64,000 bases of DNA from Promethearchaeia archaeon (GCA_029856045.1 JAHQWG010000012.1:32001-96000), one strand, 5' to 3'; counted from the stretch's first letter, positions 40,578 through 46,824 are shown. Made by a program: numbers and translations. Notes: a model not told the origin generated them from the letters alone.

Positions 40578-41408
40578 TTAGCCCATTTCTTTAAGAAATT
40601 TATCTATATAATTATTTATCTCCTTATAGATTTGTGATGGTGCTAAATGACCAGCAAACTCTATTGCAATCAATTCAGAATTGGGAATTTTTTCAGCTAA
40701 TCTTTCCGAAAAAGTGAGAGGGCTGTAATTATCCAGCATTCCACCCACGATCAACGTGGGACATTTAATATCAGAAGGATCAAAACATTTCGCTTCATCA
40801 ACCATATTGAATATTTCCTCTTCGATGATTTCCTCTAATTCAGGATCACTATATTCTTGGTTTTCGGATGCCTCTTTAAGGGCTAACTTTATAAATGGAA
40901 TTGTACGGTCTAGAACGTCATCAAGAGAATTCTCTGCAATTTTTAGAAAGTTCATACGAATATTATACGGCAAAATGTTCCAAAATGACCCTCGGATATC
41001 ATTATCAATCATTAAGTCCCCAGAATTCAGGAGAATTAAGAATTTAACTTTATCGGGATGTTTTTTAGTTAGGAGTTGTGCAATCATACCTCCAAGAAGA
41101 CTATGAGATAGAATTCCAAATTTTTCATTAATTTTTAGATGTTTCAATAGATCTTCTATATCCCTTAGATATGTCTCTCTTAAATGATCCTTTAATTTTA
41201 TACTAATAGGCTTAAAACTCCTTCCAAGACCAATTGCATCAATTGGAACTAATCTATATTTTTTTTTCTTTAGAAATGAGATTTGATGTTTGAAGAAAAT
41301 AACAGAAGAAGCTTGCCCGTGTAAAAGGATAATGGGGAAATTCTTAGGATCTTCATTGATATCCTCATAATATATGCTTAGAGAATCCTTATTTCGAAAG
41401 AATGGCAT
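40578..41408 (-). CDS. Alpha/beta hydrolase
   Basis: ILLHG, D..G.GRS, SHSLLGG nucleophile elbow variant, G.LD, AGH. Confidence 0.88.
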   Translation of the reverse strand: MPFFRNKDSLSIYYEDINEDPKNFPIILLHGQASSVIFFKHQISFLKKKKYRLVPIDAIGLGRSFKPISIKLKDHLRETYLRDIEDLLKHLKINEKFGILSHSLLGGMIAQLLTKKHPDKVKFLILLNSGDLMIDNDIRGSFWNILPYNIRMNFLKIAENSLDDVLDRTIPFIKLALKEASENQEYSDPELEEIIEEEIFNMVDEAKCFDPSDIKCPTLIVGGMLDNYSPLTFSERLAEKIPNSELIAIEFAGHLAPSQIYKEINNYIDKFLKEMG

Positions 41409-41653: not shown

Positions 41654-43204
41654 TTAGAAATTTTCATAGCGCAAAGAGCGAGATATTATATCCTTCCAAC
41701 AGGAATATTTCTTTTTACGTTCTTCTTCCGTCATCTGAGGTTTATAGGTTTTTTCTACTTTTCTAATCTGTAAGAGCTCATCTTCAGACTTCCAAAACCC
41801 CACTGCTAGCCCAGCCATAAAAACAGCACCTAATGCAGTAGTTTCAGGGTTACCTGTATGTTCAACATCTATTCCCAAGATATCACTTAAAAATTGAAGG
41901 AGAAATTTATTTTGAGATACTCCACCATCAGCTTTTATTTTTTCTATTTGAATTTTTGTGTCTATAATAATGCCTTCAACTATATCTTTTATCCTAAGGC
42001 AAATTCCTTCTAAAATTGCTCTTATTATATGTTCTTTTTTAGTATCTAAGTCTACGCCAAAAAGATTTCCTCGTGTGCTAGAATCCCAATATGGAAATGA
42101 AAGGCCAGTTGTAAATGTTGGTAAAAAATAAACGCCATCTGTTGAATCCACACTTAATGCCATTTTTTCCGTTTCGGAGGGATCATTATATAGTCCCAGT
42201 TCATTCTGCAACCAATCTATGATGTTACCGGCATTATGAGACATTCCTTCCGTCATATAAGTGGTTTGCTCATTGATATGCCAAGCAATTAATGGGTATA
42301 ATTTTCTTTTTGAAGCATAACATTTTTGTCCTGTATTAAGGTCTACAAATGAGCCCGTACCATTTGTAACTTTCATTGATCCTTCGTTAAAACAACATTG
42401 TCCGAATAAACTTGCCATTTGATCTCCAATTAAACATGTAATGGGTATTTCGCCGCCAAAAATTTTTGCTTTTCCGAAATCTCCTCTAGTATCTCTAATT
42501 TCTGGTAATATGTATTCTGGAATTCCCATTGCTTTTAAATATATCGAATTGTATTCTAATTTAAATGGATCAAACAAACCGGTATGAGCATTTGAATAAT
42601 CAGTAGCAAAAACCCTTCCTTCAGTTAAATTCCATAATATCCAAGTATCGATTGTCCCCCATACTACGCTAGTATTGGGGTCGCTGATTAATTCTTTAAC
42701 CTCCGGATGAGTTTCAAGAAAATATCCTGTTCTCATGGATGTATGATCAGTAGTGAATTTAATGGTTGAAAATGTTAATAATTTTATATTACGCGTAAAT
42801 AAGTAGATAAATTTTGTTATACCTCTTAAAAATCTAAAATAGAAACTTTTATTTTTTTTCTCAGTATATAAGGCACATCGTTTATCTTGCCAAGTGATAA
42901 TATTAGAATAAATTTTTCCAGTATTTTTATCCCAGAAAAGAAAGGATGCTCTTTGAGTAGTAATACCAATTGCTGCTATATTCTCGGGACTTAAATTATT
43001 TGATTTTATAACTTCTTCCATAACTTGTCTGCTTAATTCCCAGATTTCTTTTGGATCTTGCTCTACTTGACCCTTTTCTTCCATAATATATTTAGGTTTT
43101 CTTTTGGCTTGGGCGAAAATTTCACCATTTTTATCATAAATGAAAGCTTTAATGTTAGTTGTCCCAATATCAAGGCATAAAATATATGTATCCATTTTTA
43201 TCAC
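41654..43204 (-). CDS. FGGY-family glycerol kinase-like protein, GK5-like subtype
   Basis: LDIGTT, VEQDP, TQR, ITWQDKR, GTIDTW, ATDYSNA, GDQ..LFGQ, GTGSF, ADGG; extra amphipathic segment after WQD. Confidence 0.9.
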   Translation of the reverse strand: MIKMDTYILCLDIGTTNIKAFIYDKNGEIFAQAKRKPKYIMEEKGQVEQDPKEIWELSRQVMEEVIKSNNLSPENIAAIGITTQRASFLFWDKNTGKIYSNIITWQDKRCALYTEKKNKSFYFRFLRGITKFIYLFTRNIKLLTFSTIKFTTDHTSMRTGYFLETHPEVKELISDPNTSVVWGTIDTWILWNLTEGRVFATDYSNAHTGLFDPFKLEYNSIYLKAMGIPEYILPEIRDTRGDFGKAKIFGGEIPITCLIGDQMASLFGQCCFNEGSMKVTNGTGSFVDLNTGQKCYASKRKLYPLIAWHINEQTTYMTEGMSHNAGNIIDWLQNELGLYNDPSETEKMALSVDSTDGVYFLPTFTTGLSFPYWDSSTRGNLFGVDLDTKKEHIIRAILEGICLRIKDIVEGIIIDTKIQIEKIKADGGVSQNKFLLQFLSDILGIDVEHTGNPETTALGAVFMAGLAVGFWKSEDELLQIRKVEKTYKPQMTEEERKKKYSCWKDIISRSLRYENF

Positions 43205-43227
43205 ATTTTTATATTTTCTTTTGAAAT

Positions 43228-44514
43228 TTATATAACTTTAGCAATTAATTCAGTTAAGTCTATTATTTTAATTTTCTTTTTATTATTATCTTCAATTCCT
43301 TTTTCTAATCCTAATTCACAAAGCGGGCAAGCCGTAACGATTATATTTGCACCTGTTTCAATTAATTCATTAACTCTATTTTGCGAGATTTTTTCCGCTA
43401 AATCATTATTTGCCCAATGGAGCGTACCGCTATACCCACAGCAATGGGTATATTTTTCATTACAAATTGGCTCTAATAGATTTAATCCCGGAATTTTCTT
43501 CAAAACTTCTCTTGGCTCGGAAATAACATTTAAATTTCTTGACATTAAGCATGGATCATGATAGACAACGTTTTTGAATTCTTCAGGTATTTGGGTTTTA
43601 AGAATGAGTTTATTTTCCTCAATCAATTGTTTAAATAATTGTAAGATATGAATCACTTTTACTTTTAATTTAACACCAATCTTTTCATATCGATTAAGTA
43701 AAGTATCAGCACAACCTGGACAATCAGTCACAACTAGTTTTGCTCCAGAACTCGTGATTAAATCTATATTTTGCTTGGCATATTCTTTAGCTAAATCCAA
43801 ATGTCGAGTATTAAATAATGGGGCACCACAACACCATCTTTTATCTAAGTTAGTTGAGAATTTAATACCAGCCTTCTTCAATATTTCAATATTAGCTTTA
43901 ACAACTTCTGGAAATTTCATCATTTCGCATCCAATATAATAAAAAACATCATCATTTCCATCAGATTCGATATTTTCAATGCCCTTCTCTTCATAAGTCT
44001 TGAATATATTTGTGTCTTCTATAGTATGAGTTTTATTTAATTTTTCTATTTGTTCTTTTATATAACTTGGAGTCAAACCTTTATCATTAATATCATCTCG
44101 AACCGTTTCAAGCAATGAAACTACTGAAAAATCGAATGGGCACCAAATTTTACAGTTTTCGCAATTACAGCATTCATACATTAAATTAATAAAGTCTTTA
44201 TTTTCTTCTTTAGAAGGATCTATTTTGCCGACTGAAAGATAATAGCCAATTAGAGATTTATAAGCGGGTGCCATACTTTCAGTTTTTGCTCCTTGGAGGG
44301 AATTGCAATCAAATCTGCACATTTTAAGACATAACATGCAATTAATCAAATTTTTTACATCAGCTTTATATTCTCCTTGAGGATAAAAATTTTTCTTTTT
44401 CAACCTAAAATTCTTTAAAACTATTCTTTTAACATCACGGTCAGCATTTGCTATTATAGGAATCATCCATTTATACTTTTTTAATTGTTCCAAGATACTC
44501 ATTTTATTTAGCAC
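43228..44514 (-). CDS. GlpC/GlcF/HdrD-like Fe-S oxidoreductase (2x[4Fe-4S] plus two CCG domains)
   Basis: CMLC..MCRFDC, CCNCENCKIWCP, YIGC, WCCG, CPGC, YHDPC, HCCG, ACPLC. Confidence 0.9.
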   Translation of the reverse strand: MLNKMSILEQLKKYKWMIPIIANADRDVKRIVLKNFRLKKKNFYPQGEYKADVKNLINCMLCLKMCRFDCNSLQGAKTESMAPAYKSLIGYYLSVGKIDPSKEENKDFINLMYECCNCENCKIWCPFDFSVVSLLETVRDDINDKGLTPSYIKEQIEKLNKTHTIEDTNIFKTYEEKGIENIESDGNDDVFYYIGCEMMKFPEVVKANIEILKKAGIKFSTNLDKRWCCGAPLFNTRHLDLAKEYAKQNIDLITSSGAKLVVTDCPGCADTLLNRYEKIGVKLKVKVIHILQLFKQLIEENKLILKTQIPEEFKNVVYHDPCLMSRNLNVISEPREVLKKIPGLNLLEPICNEKYTHCCGYSGTLHWANNDLAEKISQNRVNELIETGANIIVTACPLCELGLEKGIEDNNKKKIKIIDLTELIAKVI

Positions 44515-45982
44515 CTCCCTTTTCAGGGGGAAAATAAGTTTTTCCCGGATTTAAAATATTATTTGGATCAAGTAAGTTTTTTATATCTATTAGTGATCTT
44601 AAAGCTTTCCCCCATTCTTTTTCCATCCAACGTGCTCTATTGATACCAATCCCATGATGATGAGCAATAGATCCTCCAGCTTTAACACATGCATCTATTA
44701 CAGCATCCCAACATTCTTGATAAAACTCAAAATCAGATTTTCCTCCAGTTGCAACCCCACTAAATGTAAAATAAAAACCAACCCCATTAGGATAAAAATG
44801 TGAGGCATGAGCAGTTATATGAAGATTACCTTTAACTTTCTTAACTGAATCAAGAACTAAATGATACAATTCTGCAGCATGTTCCCACATAACAGATACT
44901 TCAATAGTATCAAATACAATTTTATATGGCGGACCAAATGATGTTTCTGTTACCCTAAATCTGGTTTCAAACCAGTGTTCTACTGGTTCTTCTCCACAAT
45001 TAGCACCCTTATTATCTTCACATTTTTCTCTTGTAATAATTCCTTCTAAATTTACAAGTCTTTCATTTCCTTCACAAACAAAAACAGCCATAACTTTATC
45101 TTTCGCTTCTTTTATTTGAGGGAAATGTCTACTTGTTTCTGAGGTATCGTAGATGCGTATAACAGCTGGATATATTTGATTCCTTAAAATATTTCTGATA
45201 GCTTCTAATGAATCTTCGATAGTTGGAAAAGCGTAAGAGATTAATTCTCTTTTTTCTGGATATGGCCATATTTTTAAAGTTGCTTTAGTAACTATCCCTA
45301 ATGTGCCTTCTCCTCCAATAAATAATTTATCAAATTGTGGTCCAGTTGCTGCTCTTATTATTGTTTTTAGTTTAATGATTTCACCTTGTGGTAATATGAT
45401 TTCTAAACCTAAGACTATATCTTCTATTTTTCCATATTTTGTGGAAAATTGACCAGCTGCTCTATGGGCAATCCATCCACCAACAGAAGACATATAAATG
45501 GATTGGGGAATATGTCCACAGGTATAGCCTTTAGCATTAAGATATCTCTCTAAATTCATCCCATTCATACCTGCTTGAACTGTAACAGTCAAATCTTTAT
45601 CATTAATCTCCAATATTTTATTGAACTTTTTCATGTCAATAATGATTCCACCATATATTGGTATCGCACCTCCTACAACTCCTGAACCCTCGCCGTAAGG
45701 GATTATTGGAATTTTTTCCTCATTCGCTAATTTTAAAATCTTAGATATTTGATCATTATTTTCAGGCCATGTTATTAAGTCGGGTAACGCCGCTAATTGT
45801 CCTTGGATTCTCCAATTTAAAGTAATTAGCGTAGAATCTTTAGAATAAGCAATTAAATCTATTTCTCTGGTTGAAACATTTTTTTCCCCCAAAATAACCT
45901 TTAATTTAGAAAGAATCTTTTCTTTATCTTTAATCTCACATCTATTATCTTTAAAAATTAAACCAAATTTTTCAAGAGCCAT
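44504..45982 (-). CDS. FAD-linked oxidoreductase, alkyldihydroxyacetonephosphate synthase-like
   Basis: PYGEGSGV.GG, GHIPQS..MSSVGGWIAHRAAGQFSTKYGKIED, GGEGTLG, SIAHHHGIG, DPNNILNPG. Confidence 0.9.
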   Translation of the reverse strand: MALEKFGLIFKDNRCEIKDKEKILSKLKVILGEKNVSTREIDLIAYSKDSTLITLNWRIQGQLAALPDLITWPENNDQISKILKLANEEKIPIIPYGEGSGVVGGAIPIYGGIIIDMKKFNKILEINDKDLTVTVQAGMNGMNLERYLNAKGYTCGHIPQSIYMSSVGGWIAHRAAGQFSTKYGKIEDIVLGLEIILPQGEIIKLKTIIRAATGPQFDKLFIGGEGTLGIVTKATLKIWPYPEKRELISYAFPTIEDSLEAIRNILRNQIYPAVIRIYDTSETSRHFPQIKEAKDKVMAVFVCEGNERLVNLEGIITREKCEDNKGANCGEEPVEHWFETRFRVTETSFGPPYKIVFDTIEVSVMWEHAAELYHLVLDSVKKVKGNLHITAHASHFYPNGVGFYFTFSGVATGGKSDFEFYQECWDAVIDACVKAGGSIAHHHGIGINRARWMEKEWGKALRSLIDIKNLLDPNNILNPGKTYFPPEKGGAK

Positions 45983-46239: not shown

Positions 46240-46824
46240 ATGAGTGAAAATAAAGAACAACTAAGAAAACTCATAATGATTATTTCTGATCTTAGAGCAA
46301 AAGATTCCGAGCGATATGAAAGTCATGTTGCTTTCATGAATGAAACGGTTAAAATGATAAAGGCAATTGCAAATCAAATGAATGAACATTGGAAACAAGT
46401 TCAAAACTCTTTATTGGATTTAAATAAAACTATTGAAACAAGCCTAGATGCTTTATTAACAGGTATTAATCCAAAAGGATTACGTGAAACCTCACATAGA
46501 TTAAAAGAAATAATGGACACTATGAATAAAAGTGTTCAATCAATGAATCTAGAGAATGTTATGAGAGAATTAAAAGCGATTACAACAGAAGGTCCAAAAG
46601 TATCAATAGATTTTTCTCAACCAGTTGCTGAACAAATTTCAGCTGGAATGAGTTATCCACAGAGTGGAACAAAATTAAAGCCTCCTCCTGGAACAGAGCA
46701 AACAGGACAAGCAGAAGAGGAGGAGATATATGGGTATATCCCAGATAGTATGAAAAAGAAAAAGAAGAAGAAAGACGAAGAAGAACCGCATTTAATGAAG
46801 CCAAGCGATTTATTTAAGAAATAA
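46240..46824 (+). CDS. Hypothetical coiled-coil protein with low-complexity charged tail
   Basis: Helical N-terminal half; PPP, EEEE, K8 run and C-terminal KPSDLF. Confidence 0.7.
   Translation: MSENKEQLRKLIMIISDLRAKDSERYESHVAFMNETVKMIKAIANQMNEHWKQVQNSLLDLNKTIETSLDALLTGINPKGLRETSHRLKEIMDTMNKSVQSMNLENVMRELKAITTEGPKVSIDFSQPVAEQISAGMSYPQSGTKLKPPPGTEQTGQAEEEEIYGYIPDSMKKKKKKKDEEEPHLMKPSDLFKK

What the first reader, a model, noticed from the sequence alone, without database searches (positions are those of the whole stretch)
41654..43204. Archaeal kinase with metazoan GK5-type insertion
Seen: after WQDKR the protein has NKSFYFRFLRGITKFIYLFTRNIKLLTFSTIKFTTDHTSMR (about 42750-42880) where GlpK has its TGL..DPYFS segment, and later has YPLIAW and SETEKMA. 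From memory these match human GK5 (NNSLLMKIFHSSCRVLHFFTRSKRLFTASLFTFTTQQTSLR, YPLIGW, ETEKMA), a poorly understood subfamily usually described as metazoan. The insertion is amphipathic and basic/aromatic, suggesting membrane binding and a lipid substrate (inference). This could be an overlooked eukaryote-like protein whose gene context hints at GK5 function.
Basis: partly seen in the sequence, partly recalled or inferred. Interest (0 to 1): 0.75.

Follow-up and report, generated by a model that had tools for sequence, protein, structure and literature searches.

The report
Asgard relative of animal GK5 kinase
This Lokiarchaeial gene encodes an intact glycerol-kinase-type enzyme of the same subfamily as animal glycerol kinase 5, with the same extra helical segment and altered substrate pocket; databases already give such archaeal proteins this name, and the real substrate is still untested.

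Summary
ORF 41654-43204(-), whose true start is probably ATG 43195, encodes a 513-516 aa FGGY kinase with a GlpK fold (Z 50.6 to E. coli GlpK). It carries the three marks that separate GK5-like proteins from canonical GlpK:
- a 16-18 aa helical insertion before the Tyr135 loop
- Glu84 replaced by Ala
- YPLIAW in place of LTTIAW

In 182 relatives, all 73 with the insertion lack the Glu.

In trees, GK5-like proteins form one clade. Eukaryotic GK5 (Metazoa, an ichthyosporean, Amoebozoa) is monophyletic and sits among Asgard lineages. So GK5 is not metazoan-specific and probably has an archaeal origin.

The membrane-binding and lipid-substrate idea is not supported, though not excluded. The insertion is modelled as a confident helical hairpin, and a 2025 preprint assigns mammalian alkylglycerol kinase to ACAD10.

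The kinase is translationally coupled to an AGPS-like flavoprotein and a GlpC-like Fe-S protein. This trio recurs in distant Asgard lineages and in Thermoplasmata. The most likely role is phosphorylation of glycerol or a close analogue.

NCBI already names such MAG proteins "glycerol kinase 5". This scan also reached the same reading earlier on at least four other Asgard genomes. It is a new member of a known kind, of moderate interest.

The parts
41654..43204 (-). GK5-like FGGY kinase gene (516 aa from GTG 43204; more likely 513 aa from ATG 43195; stop codon at 41654-41656)
   Evidence: ORF. Pfam FGGY_N 1.2e-45 and FGGY_C 2.3e-34. NCBIfam GlpK models score below their cut-offs: 466.5 against 498 and 452 against 590. 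AlphaFold2 mean pLDDT 95.4. Z 50.6 to E. coli GlpK 3ezw. Start-codon region read.
42731..42853 (-). Remodelled segment, residues 118-158, holding the GK5-type insertion. Modelled helices are 121-137 and 140-146, then a loop at 147-154 in the place of the GlpK Tyr135 loop.
   Evidence: Aligns without gaps to metazoan GK5 and is absent from canonical GlpK. Spacing is 76-86 aa against about 60 aa. Conserved positions are N118, S120, K/R124, L126, R127, T137, R138, S146, L148, F150, R158 and W161.
42944..42958 (-). TQRAS motif. Arg85 equals E. coli Arg83 and is kept. Ala86 stands where canonical GlpK has the glycerol ligand Glu84.
   Evidence: HMMER alignment to 1bo5. The position is A/S/G/N/C in all 73 insertion-bearing relatives and E in 85 of 109 without the insertion.
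42410..42427 (-). GDQMAS motif with Asp261 (E. coli catalytic base Asp245) and Gln262, both kept
   Evidence: Invariant in A1, A2 and A3.
42281..42298 (-). YPLIAW, the GK5-type signature in place of canonical LTTIAW
42158..42178 (-). SETEKMA motif shared with metazoan GK5 (AETEKMA)
43228..44514 (-). CCG-domain, dicluster Fe-S protein (GlpC/HdrD/TfrB-like). Its stop lies 23 nt before the kinase GTG, and its start overlaps the upstream gene by 11 nt.
   Evidence: Pfam CCG 1.2e-34. NCBIfam TfrB, LdhH and GlpC hits are all below cut-off. Coordinates.
44504..45982 (-). AGPS-like FAD-linked oxidase, first gene of the trio
   Evidence: Pfam FAD_binding_4 plus FAD-oxidase_C. Best PDB match is alkyl-DHAP synthase 2uuu at 1e-63, against D-lactate dehydrogenase at 7e-42. 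The equivalents of AGPS Arg419, Tyr578 and His615-617 are kept.
40578..41408 (-). Alpha/beta hydrolase gene, 245 nt downstream of the kinase. The adjacency is kept only in close relatives.
   Evidence: Pfam Abhydrolase_1 8.5e-18. Synteny is seen in L001 and L138 but not in L003 or L006.

Best explanation
The gene encodes a catalytically competent ATP-dependent FGGY kinase of the GK5-like subfamily, the sister branch of canonical glycerol kinase GlpK.

It keeps the GlpK fold, the ATP site, the catalytic Asp and half of the glycerol pocket (Arg83, Trp103, Asp245, Gln246 and Phe270 equivalents). The other half is rebuilt: Glu84 becomes Ala, and the Tyr135 loop is replaced by a helical hairpin of about 17 extra residues with a conserved basic face.

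It is translated together with an AGPS-like flavoprotein and a GlpC-like Fe-S protein. The most likely role (inferred, not shown) is to phosphorylate free glycerol, or a very close glycerol-like triol. The phosphorylated product would then feed the flavoprotein/Fe-S pair, which would oxidise it and pass the electrons to the Fe-S subunit. This would be an optional entry step into a glycerol-phosphate route that most relatives run without the kinase.

In evolutionary terms, it is an Asgard member of the lineage from which eukaryotic GK5 arose.

Confidence by part: GK5-like subfamily membership and an intact active site, about 0.9. Glycerol or a near analogue as substrate with the product handed to the neighbouring enzymes, about 0.5.
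For: Family and fold:
- Both FGGY domains are present.
- The closest curated models are GlpK.
- The closest solved structures are glycerol kinases, 1e-109 by sequence and Z 50.6 with 488 of 516 residues aligned.
- D12, D261, Q262, the GTG motif at 282-284 and the DGG motif at 426-428 are conserved across 60 GK5-like proteins.

Subfamily:
- Three co-varying signatures.
- The GK5-like clade has support 100/97 and 99.

Genome setting:
- This is the only GlpK-type kinase in a 100%-complete genome. The next FGGY protein is a xylulokinase over its cut-off.
- A GlpD-like G3P dehydrogenase is present elsewhere in the genome.

Operon:
- There is an 11-nt overlap and a 23-nt spacer between the three genes.
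- The flavoprotein-CCG-kinase trio recurs with kinases only 35-65% identical: Loki family f1, the P0088 lineage, Asgard family f22 and Thermoplasmata.
- In Thermoplasmata a GlpA-like (DAO plus BFD) gene lies directly before the kinase.

From memory, not readable here: UniProt and Zhang et al. 2017 credit mouse GK5 with glycerol kinase activity.
Against: - Two of the four side chains that hydrogen-bond glycerol in E. coli GlpK (Glu84, Tyr135; established structural knowledge) are not kept in any GK5-like protein.
- GK5-like genes coexist with a canonical GlpK above cut-off in Leptospira interrogans, a Spirochaetaceae MAG and an Actinomycetota MAG. They also coexist in Asgard family f24 and, from general knowledge, in animals. 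This argues for a non-redundant activity.
- The flavoprotein (173 of 301 Asgard genomes; 55 of 68 in family f1) and the GlpD-like gene (52 of 68 in f1) are far more common than the kinase (10 of 68 in f1). Their substrate therefore does not depend on this kinase.
- The neighbour keeps the AGPS catalytic residues, and AGPS is a lipid enzyme.
- No biochemical data exist for any prokaryotic member.
Confidence: 0.5

Rival explanations
1. It is a lipid kinase. The basic amphipathic insertion docks the enzyme on a membrane, and the widened pocket takes a glycerol that carries a chain on the distal oxygen (1-O-alkyl- or monoacyl-glycerol, or an archaeal ether-lipid breakdown product). This would make a lyso-phosphatidate-type product for the AGPS-like neighbour.
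For: - Glu84 and Tyr135, which close the distal end of the glycerol pocket in GlpK, are lost in every family member.
- Basic residues are conserved with helical periodicity at 124, 127, 131, 138 and 141.
- The neighbour keeps the AGPS Arg, Tyr and HHH residues.
- An alpha/beta hydrolase lies downstream, and a PlsC-like acyltransferase lies near the trio in L003.
- A mouse lipid QTL hotspot that includes Gk5 affects an ether-PE species, although other genes lie in the interval.
Against: - The insertion is modelled as an ordered helical hairpin with block-mean pLDDT 92-96, which does not look like a floppy membrane anchor. Exposure could not be measured because no coordinates are given.
- A preprint assigns the mammalian 1-O-alkylglycerol kinase to ACAD10, with worm and mouse knock-outs losing salvage.
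- The Thermoplasmata operon carries a soluble-metabolite enzyme, GlpA-like.
- A preprint traces eukaryotic AGPS to Myxococcota, not to Asgard.
Confidence: 0.17
2. It is a kinase for a different small substrate, or with different regio- or stereochemistry. Candidates are dihydroxyacetone, D- or L-glyceraldehyde, glycerate-like or C4 polyols, or glycerol phosphorylated at the other end to give sn-glycerol-1-phosphate. This would explain why the family coexists with canonical GlpK.
For: - The pocket is rebuilt on the side that orients the distal hydroxyls.
- It coexists with canonical GlpK in three bacteria and in Asgard family f24.
- Two Zn-dependent alcohol/polyol dehydrogenase genes flank the Actinomycetota homologue.
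- Scores lie below both GlpK equivalog cut-offs.
- The own genome gives only a weak G1P-dehydrogenase match, 119.9 bits against a 413-bit cut-off.
Against: - It is the only GlpK-type kinase in this genome and in families f1 and f2.
- The catalytic end of the pocket is unchanged.
- The kinase was found in only 10 of 68 f1 genomes, so it cannot be the general source of a lipid backbone.
- Glycerol kinase activity has been reported for mouse GK5 (from memory, not verified here).
Confidence: 0.2
3. It is a non-catalytic or mainly regulatory protein: a scaffold, in the way mammalian GK5 binds SREBP.
For: From memory, mammalian GK5 is reported to bind SREBPs. The conserved basic surface of the insertion could be a protein-binding face.
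Against: - All catalytic and nucleotide-binding motifs are conserved across 60 family members.
- From memory, kinase-dead mice phenocopy null mice.
- Archaea have no SREBP.
Confidence: 0.03

Closest known systems
Eukaryotic glycerol kinase 5 (GK5; for example Panthera P0240, Rousettus P0202, Xenopus P0227, Mytilus P0114, Acanthamoeba P0106)
   Same: - 37-40% identity over the full length.
- The same insertion with no gaps, the same loss of Glu84, the same YPLI(A/G)W and (S/A)ETEKMA motifs.
- The same clade in both trees.
   Different: - Archaeal host and operon context with a flavoprotein and an Fe-S protein.
- No N- or C-terminal extensions. Acanthamoeba GK5 carries an N-terminal FHA domain, and many animal forms have longer termini.
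- Identity inside the insertion itself is only 22-33%.
- The SREBP partner of the mammalian protein does not exist in archaea.
Canonical glycerol kinase GlpK (E. coli 1bo5/3ezw, Thermococcus kodakarensis 6k76)
   Same: The same fold (Z about 50, rmsd 1.7-2.1 A), the same ATP site and the same catalytic Asp245, Gln246, Arg83, Trp103 and Phe270 equivalents. Identity is 36-38%.
   Different: - Has Glu84 and Tyr135 and lacks the 16-26 aa insertion.
- Has LTTIAW instead of YPLIAW.
- The query falls below the NCBIfam GlpK cut-offs.
- Forms a separate clade.
Eubacterium limosum-type 'GlpK' (P0252, P0249)
   Same: Sister group of the GK5-like clade (100/100). Glu84 is also replaced by Ala.
   Different: No insertion (spacing 60 aa) and no YPLIAW motif.
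Anaerobic glycerol-3-phosphate dehydrogenase GlpABC with GlpK (the bacterial glp system)
   Same: A glycerol-kinase-type gene is linked to a CCG-domain Fe-S subunit (GlpC-like). In Thermoplasmata it is also linked to a GlpA-like gene.
   Different: The flavoprotein here belongs to the AGPS/GlcD (vanillyl-alcohol oxidase) fold, not GlpA/GlpB. All curated GlpC, TfrB and LdhH scores are below cut-off.

Membership tests
FGGY carbohydrate kinases (Pfam PF00370 + PF02782) | Both FGGY domains above the gathering score | tested here: met
   FGGY_N 156.4 bits (cut-off 28.8) and FGGY_C 119.4 bits (cut-off 27).
FGGY carbohydrate kinases (Pfam PF00370 + PF02782) | Catalytic Asp and nucleotide-binding motifs (DxGT, GDQ, GTG, DGG) | tested here: met
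   D12, D261-Q262, G282-G284 and D426-G428 are conserved.
Canonical glycerol kinase GlpK (NCBIfam TIGR01311 / NF000756) | Score over the curated equivalog or subfamily cut-off | tested here: not met
   452 bits against 590.35 and 466.5 bits against 498. In the same test the control genomes score over the cut-off.
Canonical glycerol kinase GlpK (NCBIfam TIGR01311 / NF000756) | Full set of glycerol ligands (Arg83, Glu84, Trp103, Tyr135, Asp245, Phe270 of E. coli) | tested here: not met
   Glu84 is Ala86. The Tyr135 position aligns with Asp153, a variable D/Q/A column. The other four ligands are kept.
GK5-like subfamily (database family 'glycerol kinase 5') | Insertion of 16 or more residues between the WQD(x)R motif and the FGTIDTW motif, alignable with animal GK5 | tested here: met
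   Spacing is 78 aa, against 76 in animals and 60 in GlpK. The alignment to 60 members has no gaps.
GK5-like subfamily (database family 'glycerol kinase 5') | Non-acidic residue at the Glu84 position and a [YF]P[LV][IV][AG]W motif | tested here: met
   Ala86 and YPLIAW. The features co-occur in 72 of 73 insertion-bearing relatives.
GK5-like subfamily (database family 'glycerol kinase 5') | Falls inside the clade that holds animal GK5, to the exclusion of canonical GlpK | tested here: met
   Clade support is 99 (quick tree, 89 rows) and 100/97 (careful tree, 48 rows).
GK5-like subfamily (database family 'glycerol kinase 5') | Biochemical activity and substrate of the subfamily | not testable with these tools
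   No solved structure of any GK5 appears in the PDB search. The only biochemical paper could not be read.

The most novel reading that the evidence does not exclude
Eukaryotic GK5 is a gene inherited or acquired from an Asgard archaeon. The whole GK5-like family, which in archaea is tied to an AGPS-like flavoprotein/Fe-S pair, acts on something other than plain glycerol-to-sn-G3P. This could be a glycerol substituted on the distal oxygen, or phosphorylation with the opposite stereochemistry. If so, the archaeal operon would reveal the still unclear biochemical role of animal GK5 in lipid homeostasis.
Probability: 0.15. Interest if true: 0.7.

Novelty: new member of a known kind. Interest (0 to 1): 0.4.

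Why it matters
Animal GK5 is a poorly characterised kinase linked to skin lipid and sterol regulation and to drug resistance in lung cancer cells.

This work shows three things. The whole-family signature (insertion plus remodelled pocket) is ancient. It is widespread in Asgard archaea. Eukaryotic GK5 branches from within that archaeal diversity. Together these give the family an evolutionary origin.

They also give simple, soluble, operon-embedded prokaryotic members on which substrate specificity can be tested directly.

The conserved link to an AGPS-like flavoprotein with an Fe-S partner is a concrete, testable clue to what the product is used for. The finding is not a new kind of system, and databases already carry the name.

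Tried and rejected
- The search for related loci with a GK5-like alignment was swamped by canonical GlpK. The canonical ones served as named outgroups.
- The neighbourhoods of the Leptospira and Actinomycetota homologues gave no glp genes. They held SufBD, an ABC ATPase and cytochrome c in Leptospira, and Zn-dependent alcohol dehydrogenases in the Actinomycetota MAG.
- I tested whether the kinase co-occurs with the GlpD-like G3P dehydrogenase in Asgard genomes. It does not: GlpD-like is in 52 of 68 f1 genomes and the kinase in 10 of 68.
- I tested the idea that the genome lacks G1P dehydrogenase. The result is inconclusive: 119.9 bits against a 413-bit cut-off, with GGGP synthase present.
- Zhang et al. 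2017 (PNAS; PMC5495269) could not be read, so glycerol kinase activity of mouse GK5 rests on memory only.
- A last homologue search with a protist GK5 (P0244) found no further named eukaryotic supergroups. The eukaryotic range outside Amorphea is therefore untested.
- Model coordinates are not given to scripts, so pocket volume and exposure of the insertion could not be measured.
- The sigma-70 promoter scan is not meaningful for an archaeon.
- Contamination, or recent transfer from a eukaryote, is rejected. The gene sits in a conserved archaeal operon, and eukaryotes form a single clade nested among prokaryotes. Forcing all prokaryotic GK5-like rows into one clade costs 53.4 log-likelihood units, p-AU 0.024. 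The group was named after the first tree was seen, so this p is only indicative.

Full report
**1. What is in the sequence**

The window is AT-rich, with about 24-35% G+C. ORF 41654..43204 on the minus strand is open for 516 codons from a GTG. An ATG three codons further in (43195) is preceded by GTGAT-AAAA. The 92%-identical homologue P0002 is 513 aa. The true start is therefore probably 43195.

| Motif | Residues | Window coordinates |
|---|---|---|
| WQDKR | 105-109 | 42878-42892 |
| NKSFYF...HTSMR | 118-158 | 42731-42853 |
| YPLIAW | 303-308 | 42281-42298 |
| SETEKMA | 343-349 | 42158-42178 |

**2. Family and fold**

- Pfam finds both FGGY domains.
- The best NCBIfam models are glycerol kinase, but both score below their curated cut-offs: 466.5 against 498 and 452 against 590.
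- The closest solved proteins are all glycerol kinases, at 1e-109 and weaker.
- An AlphaFold2 model built on 60 relatives is very confident, with mean pLDDT 95.4.
- The model superposes on E. coli GlpK with Z 50.6, rmsd 1.8 A and 488 of 516 residues aligned.
- The catalytic and nucleotide motifs are intact: D12, G14, D261-Q262, GTG 282-284 and DGG 426-428.

**3. The GK5 resemblance is real**

I fetched real GK5 proteins: Mytilus, Actinia, Xenopus, Panthera, Rousettus and Acanthamoeba. In alignment A1 the segment after WQDKR aligns without gaps to animal GK5. Four canonical GlpKs show a gap of about 24 columns there.

Over 182 scorable relatives, drawn mainly from an exhaustive search of 50%-identity representatives:

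- The spacing from W105 to G183 is 76-86 aa in 73 proteins and about 60 aa in the others.
- All 73 insertion-bearing proteins have a non-acidic residue where E. coli GlpK has Glu84. The query has Ala86.
- 72 of the 73 have the Pro of YPLIAW.
- 85 of the 109 without the insertion keep the Glu.

By the alignment to 1bo5 and MAFFT, the equivalents of Arg83, Trp103, Asp245, Gln246 and Phe270 are kept. The Tyr135 position falls in a variable D/Q/A column just after the insertion.

The model shows the extra residues as two helices (121-137 and 140-146) with block-mean pLDDT 92-96. Their hydrophobic positions are conserved and they carry a conserved basic face at residues 124, 127, 131, 138 and 141. 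Whether that face touches a membrane, a protein or a phosphate is not shown.

**4. Who has it**

- The best hits are Lokiarchaeia/Promethearchaeota MAG proteins, several already named 'glycerol kinase 5' by NCBI.
- The ESM Atlas has a 'Glycerol kinase 5' cluster that is 81% bacterial, mostly Spirochaetota.
- Named members outside animals include:
  - eukaryotes: Acanthamoeba, Arcella and the ichthyosporean Chromosphaera
  - archaea: Hermod- and Hodarchaeota, Thermoplasmata and Theionarchaea
  - bacteria: Spirochaetota including Leptospira interrogans, Actinomycetota and Planctomycetota
- Inside the window's own phylum the gene is patchy:
  - 10 of 68 sampled genomes of the own family
  - 7 of 7 in family f2
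  - a second copy beside a canonical GlpK in several genomes of f24
- The own genome (3.34 Mb, 100% complete) has no canonical GlpK. Its next FGGY protein is a xylulokinase over its cut-off.
- The three bacteria examined carry a canonical GlpK over cut-off in addition to the GK5-like gene.

**5. Trees**

A quick 89-row tree (LG+C20 PMSF) recovers a GK5-like clade with support 99. Its sister is a Eubacterium-type group that has the Glu-to-Ala change but no insertion.

A careful 48-row tree gives the following:

- The GK5-like clade has support 100/97.
- Thermoplasmata/Theionarchaea plus Actinomycetota branch first, then Asgard family f22.
- Next comes a clade (99/95) made of three lineages in an unresolved three-way split:
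  - the Asgard protein P0088
  - all eukaryotic GK5, which is monophyletic at 100/98, with the two amoebozoan lineages branching first and Chromosphaera beside animals
  - the remaining Asgard lineages, with Spirochaetes nested inside them

Forcing all prokaryotic GK5-like rows into one clade costs 53.4 log-likelihood units, p-AU 0.024. The group was named after the first tree was seen, so this p is only indicative.

The reading is that eukaryotic GK5 arose from within prokaryotic, mostly Asgard, diversity. Vertical descent from the archaeal ancestor and an early transfer into Amorphea cannot be told apart with this sampling.

**6. Gene context**

The kinase is the third gene of a tightly packed unit:

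- FAD-linked oxidase at 44504-45982
- CCG/dicluster Fe-S protein at 43228-44514, overlapping the oxidase gene by 11 nt
- the kinase, 23 nt further on

The oxidase matches alkyl-DHAP synthase structures far better than D-lactate dehydrogenase, 1e-63 against 7e-42. It keeps the equivalents of AGPS Arg419, Tyr578 and the HHH loop.

The trio recurs with kinases of 35-65% identity:

- relatives in the own family
- the P0088 genome
- Asgard family f22, whose kinases are also of the GK5 type
- Thermoplasmata, where a GlpA-like (DAO plus BFD) gene sits directly before the kinase

In f2 the genes lie 1-5 kb apart. In f24, a Hermodarchaeote and the bacteria the link is absent.

The flavoprotein is much commoner than the kinase: 173 of 301 genomes overall and 55 of 68 in the own family. 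So is a GlpD-like G3P dehydrogenase, at 52 of 68. The kinase therefore looks like an optional feeder step added to a widespread flavoprotein/Fe-S module.

**7. Function**

Shown:
- an intact kinase with a GlpK fold
- a pocket that is half conserved and half rebuilt
- conserved coupling to a flavoprotein/Fe-S pair

Inferred:
- The substrate is glycerol or a close analogue.
- The phosphorylated product goes to the neighbouring enzymes.

The lipid-substrate rival keeps some weight. The rebuilt pocket, the AGPS-like neighbour and a mouse lipid QTL interval containing Gk5 all point that way. It is weakened by three things: the ordered model of the insertion, the assignment of mammalian alkylglycerol kinase to ACAD10, and the GlpA-like gene in the Thermoplasmata operon.

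Coexistence with canonical GlpK in bacteria and in f24 keeps open a different substrate or stereochemistry.

**8. Novelty**

- No paper in the searchable library links GK5 with Asgard or archaea.
- A preprint on plasmalogen enzymes traces eukaryotic AGPS to Myxococcota and does not treat GK5.
- Database names already exist.
- This scan's earlier follow-ups on other Asgard genomes reached the same conclusion.

The verdict is a new member of a known kind, with an evolutionary point and a testable operon clue.

Noticed in passing
window 43193-43210 (-): The kinase probably starts at ATG 43195, with GTGAT four bases upstream acting as a Shine-Dalgarno-like element. The listed GTG 43204 lies inside that element.
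   Followed up: partly
window 43228-45982 (-); Asgard genomes: The AGPS-like flavoprotein with its CCG Fe-S partner is widespread in Asgard archaea (173 of 301 sampled genomes) and mostly occurs without any GlpK-type kinase. It keeps the AGPS catalytic Arg, Tyr and HHH residues but lacks the eukaryotic N-terminal region. Its substrate is unknown.
   Followed up: partly
L005 (P0061), and P0063, P0082: Proteins 52-58% identical to the query, labelled Spirochaetales MAGs, nest inside the Lokiarchaeial clade. The L005 neighbourhood looks bacterial (PilZ, SpoIIE, HisKA/response regulator). Transfer from Asgard to Spirochaetes therefore seems more likely than mis-binning.
   Followed up: partly
L031 (Leptospira interrogans ATCC 43642) and G301: Leptospira interrogans carries a GK5-like kinase (40% identical to the query) in addition to a canonical GlpK that scores over the cut-off.
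   Followed up: partly
P0285 / P0446 (795 aa, Xanthomonadales metagenome proteins): This is a canonical GlpK-type kinase of 795 aa. One member of its cluster is named alpha/beta hydrolase, which suggests a kinase-hydrolase fusion. That would parallel the kinase-hydrolase adjacency in this window.
   Followed up: no
P0106 (Acanthamoeba castellanii, 803 aa): The amoebozoan GK5 carries an N-terminal FHA (phosphopeptide-binding) domain. This hints at regulation by phosphorylation or by protein partners.
   Followed up: no
L131 = G000:C9:22212-25496: The own genome encodes a phosphonopyruvate decarboxylase (TIGR03297, 431 bits, over its cut-off). It is directly followed by an iron-type alcohol dehydrogenase. 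This suggests phosphonate (aminoethylphosphonate-type) biosynthesis in this Asgard archaeon.
   Followed up: no
G000:C36:166931-167662 and C32:37709-38365: The best match to the sn-glycerol-1-phosphate dehydrogenase model scores only 119.9 bits against a 413-bit cut-off in a 100%-complete genome. GGGP synthase is clearly present at 189.8 bits. The source of the G1P backbone may be unusual.
   Followed up: partly
window 46240-46824 (+): A 194-aa ORF divergent from the trio has no Pfam match and ends in a lysine- and glutamate-rich tail.
   Followed up: no
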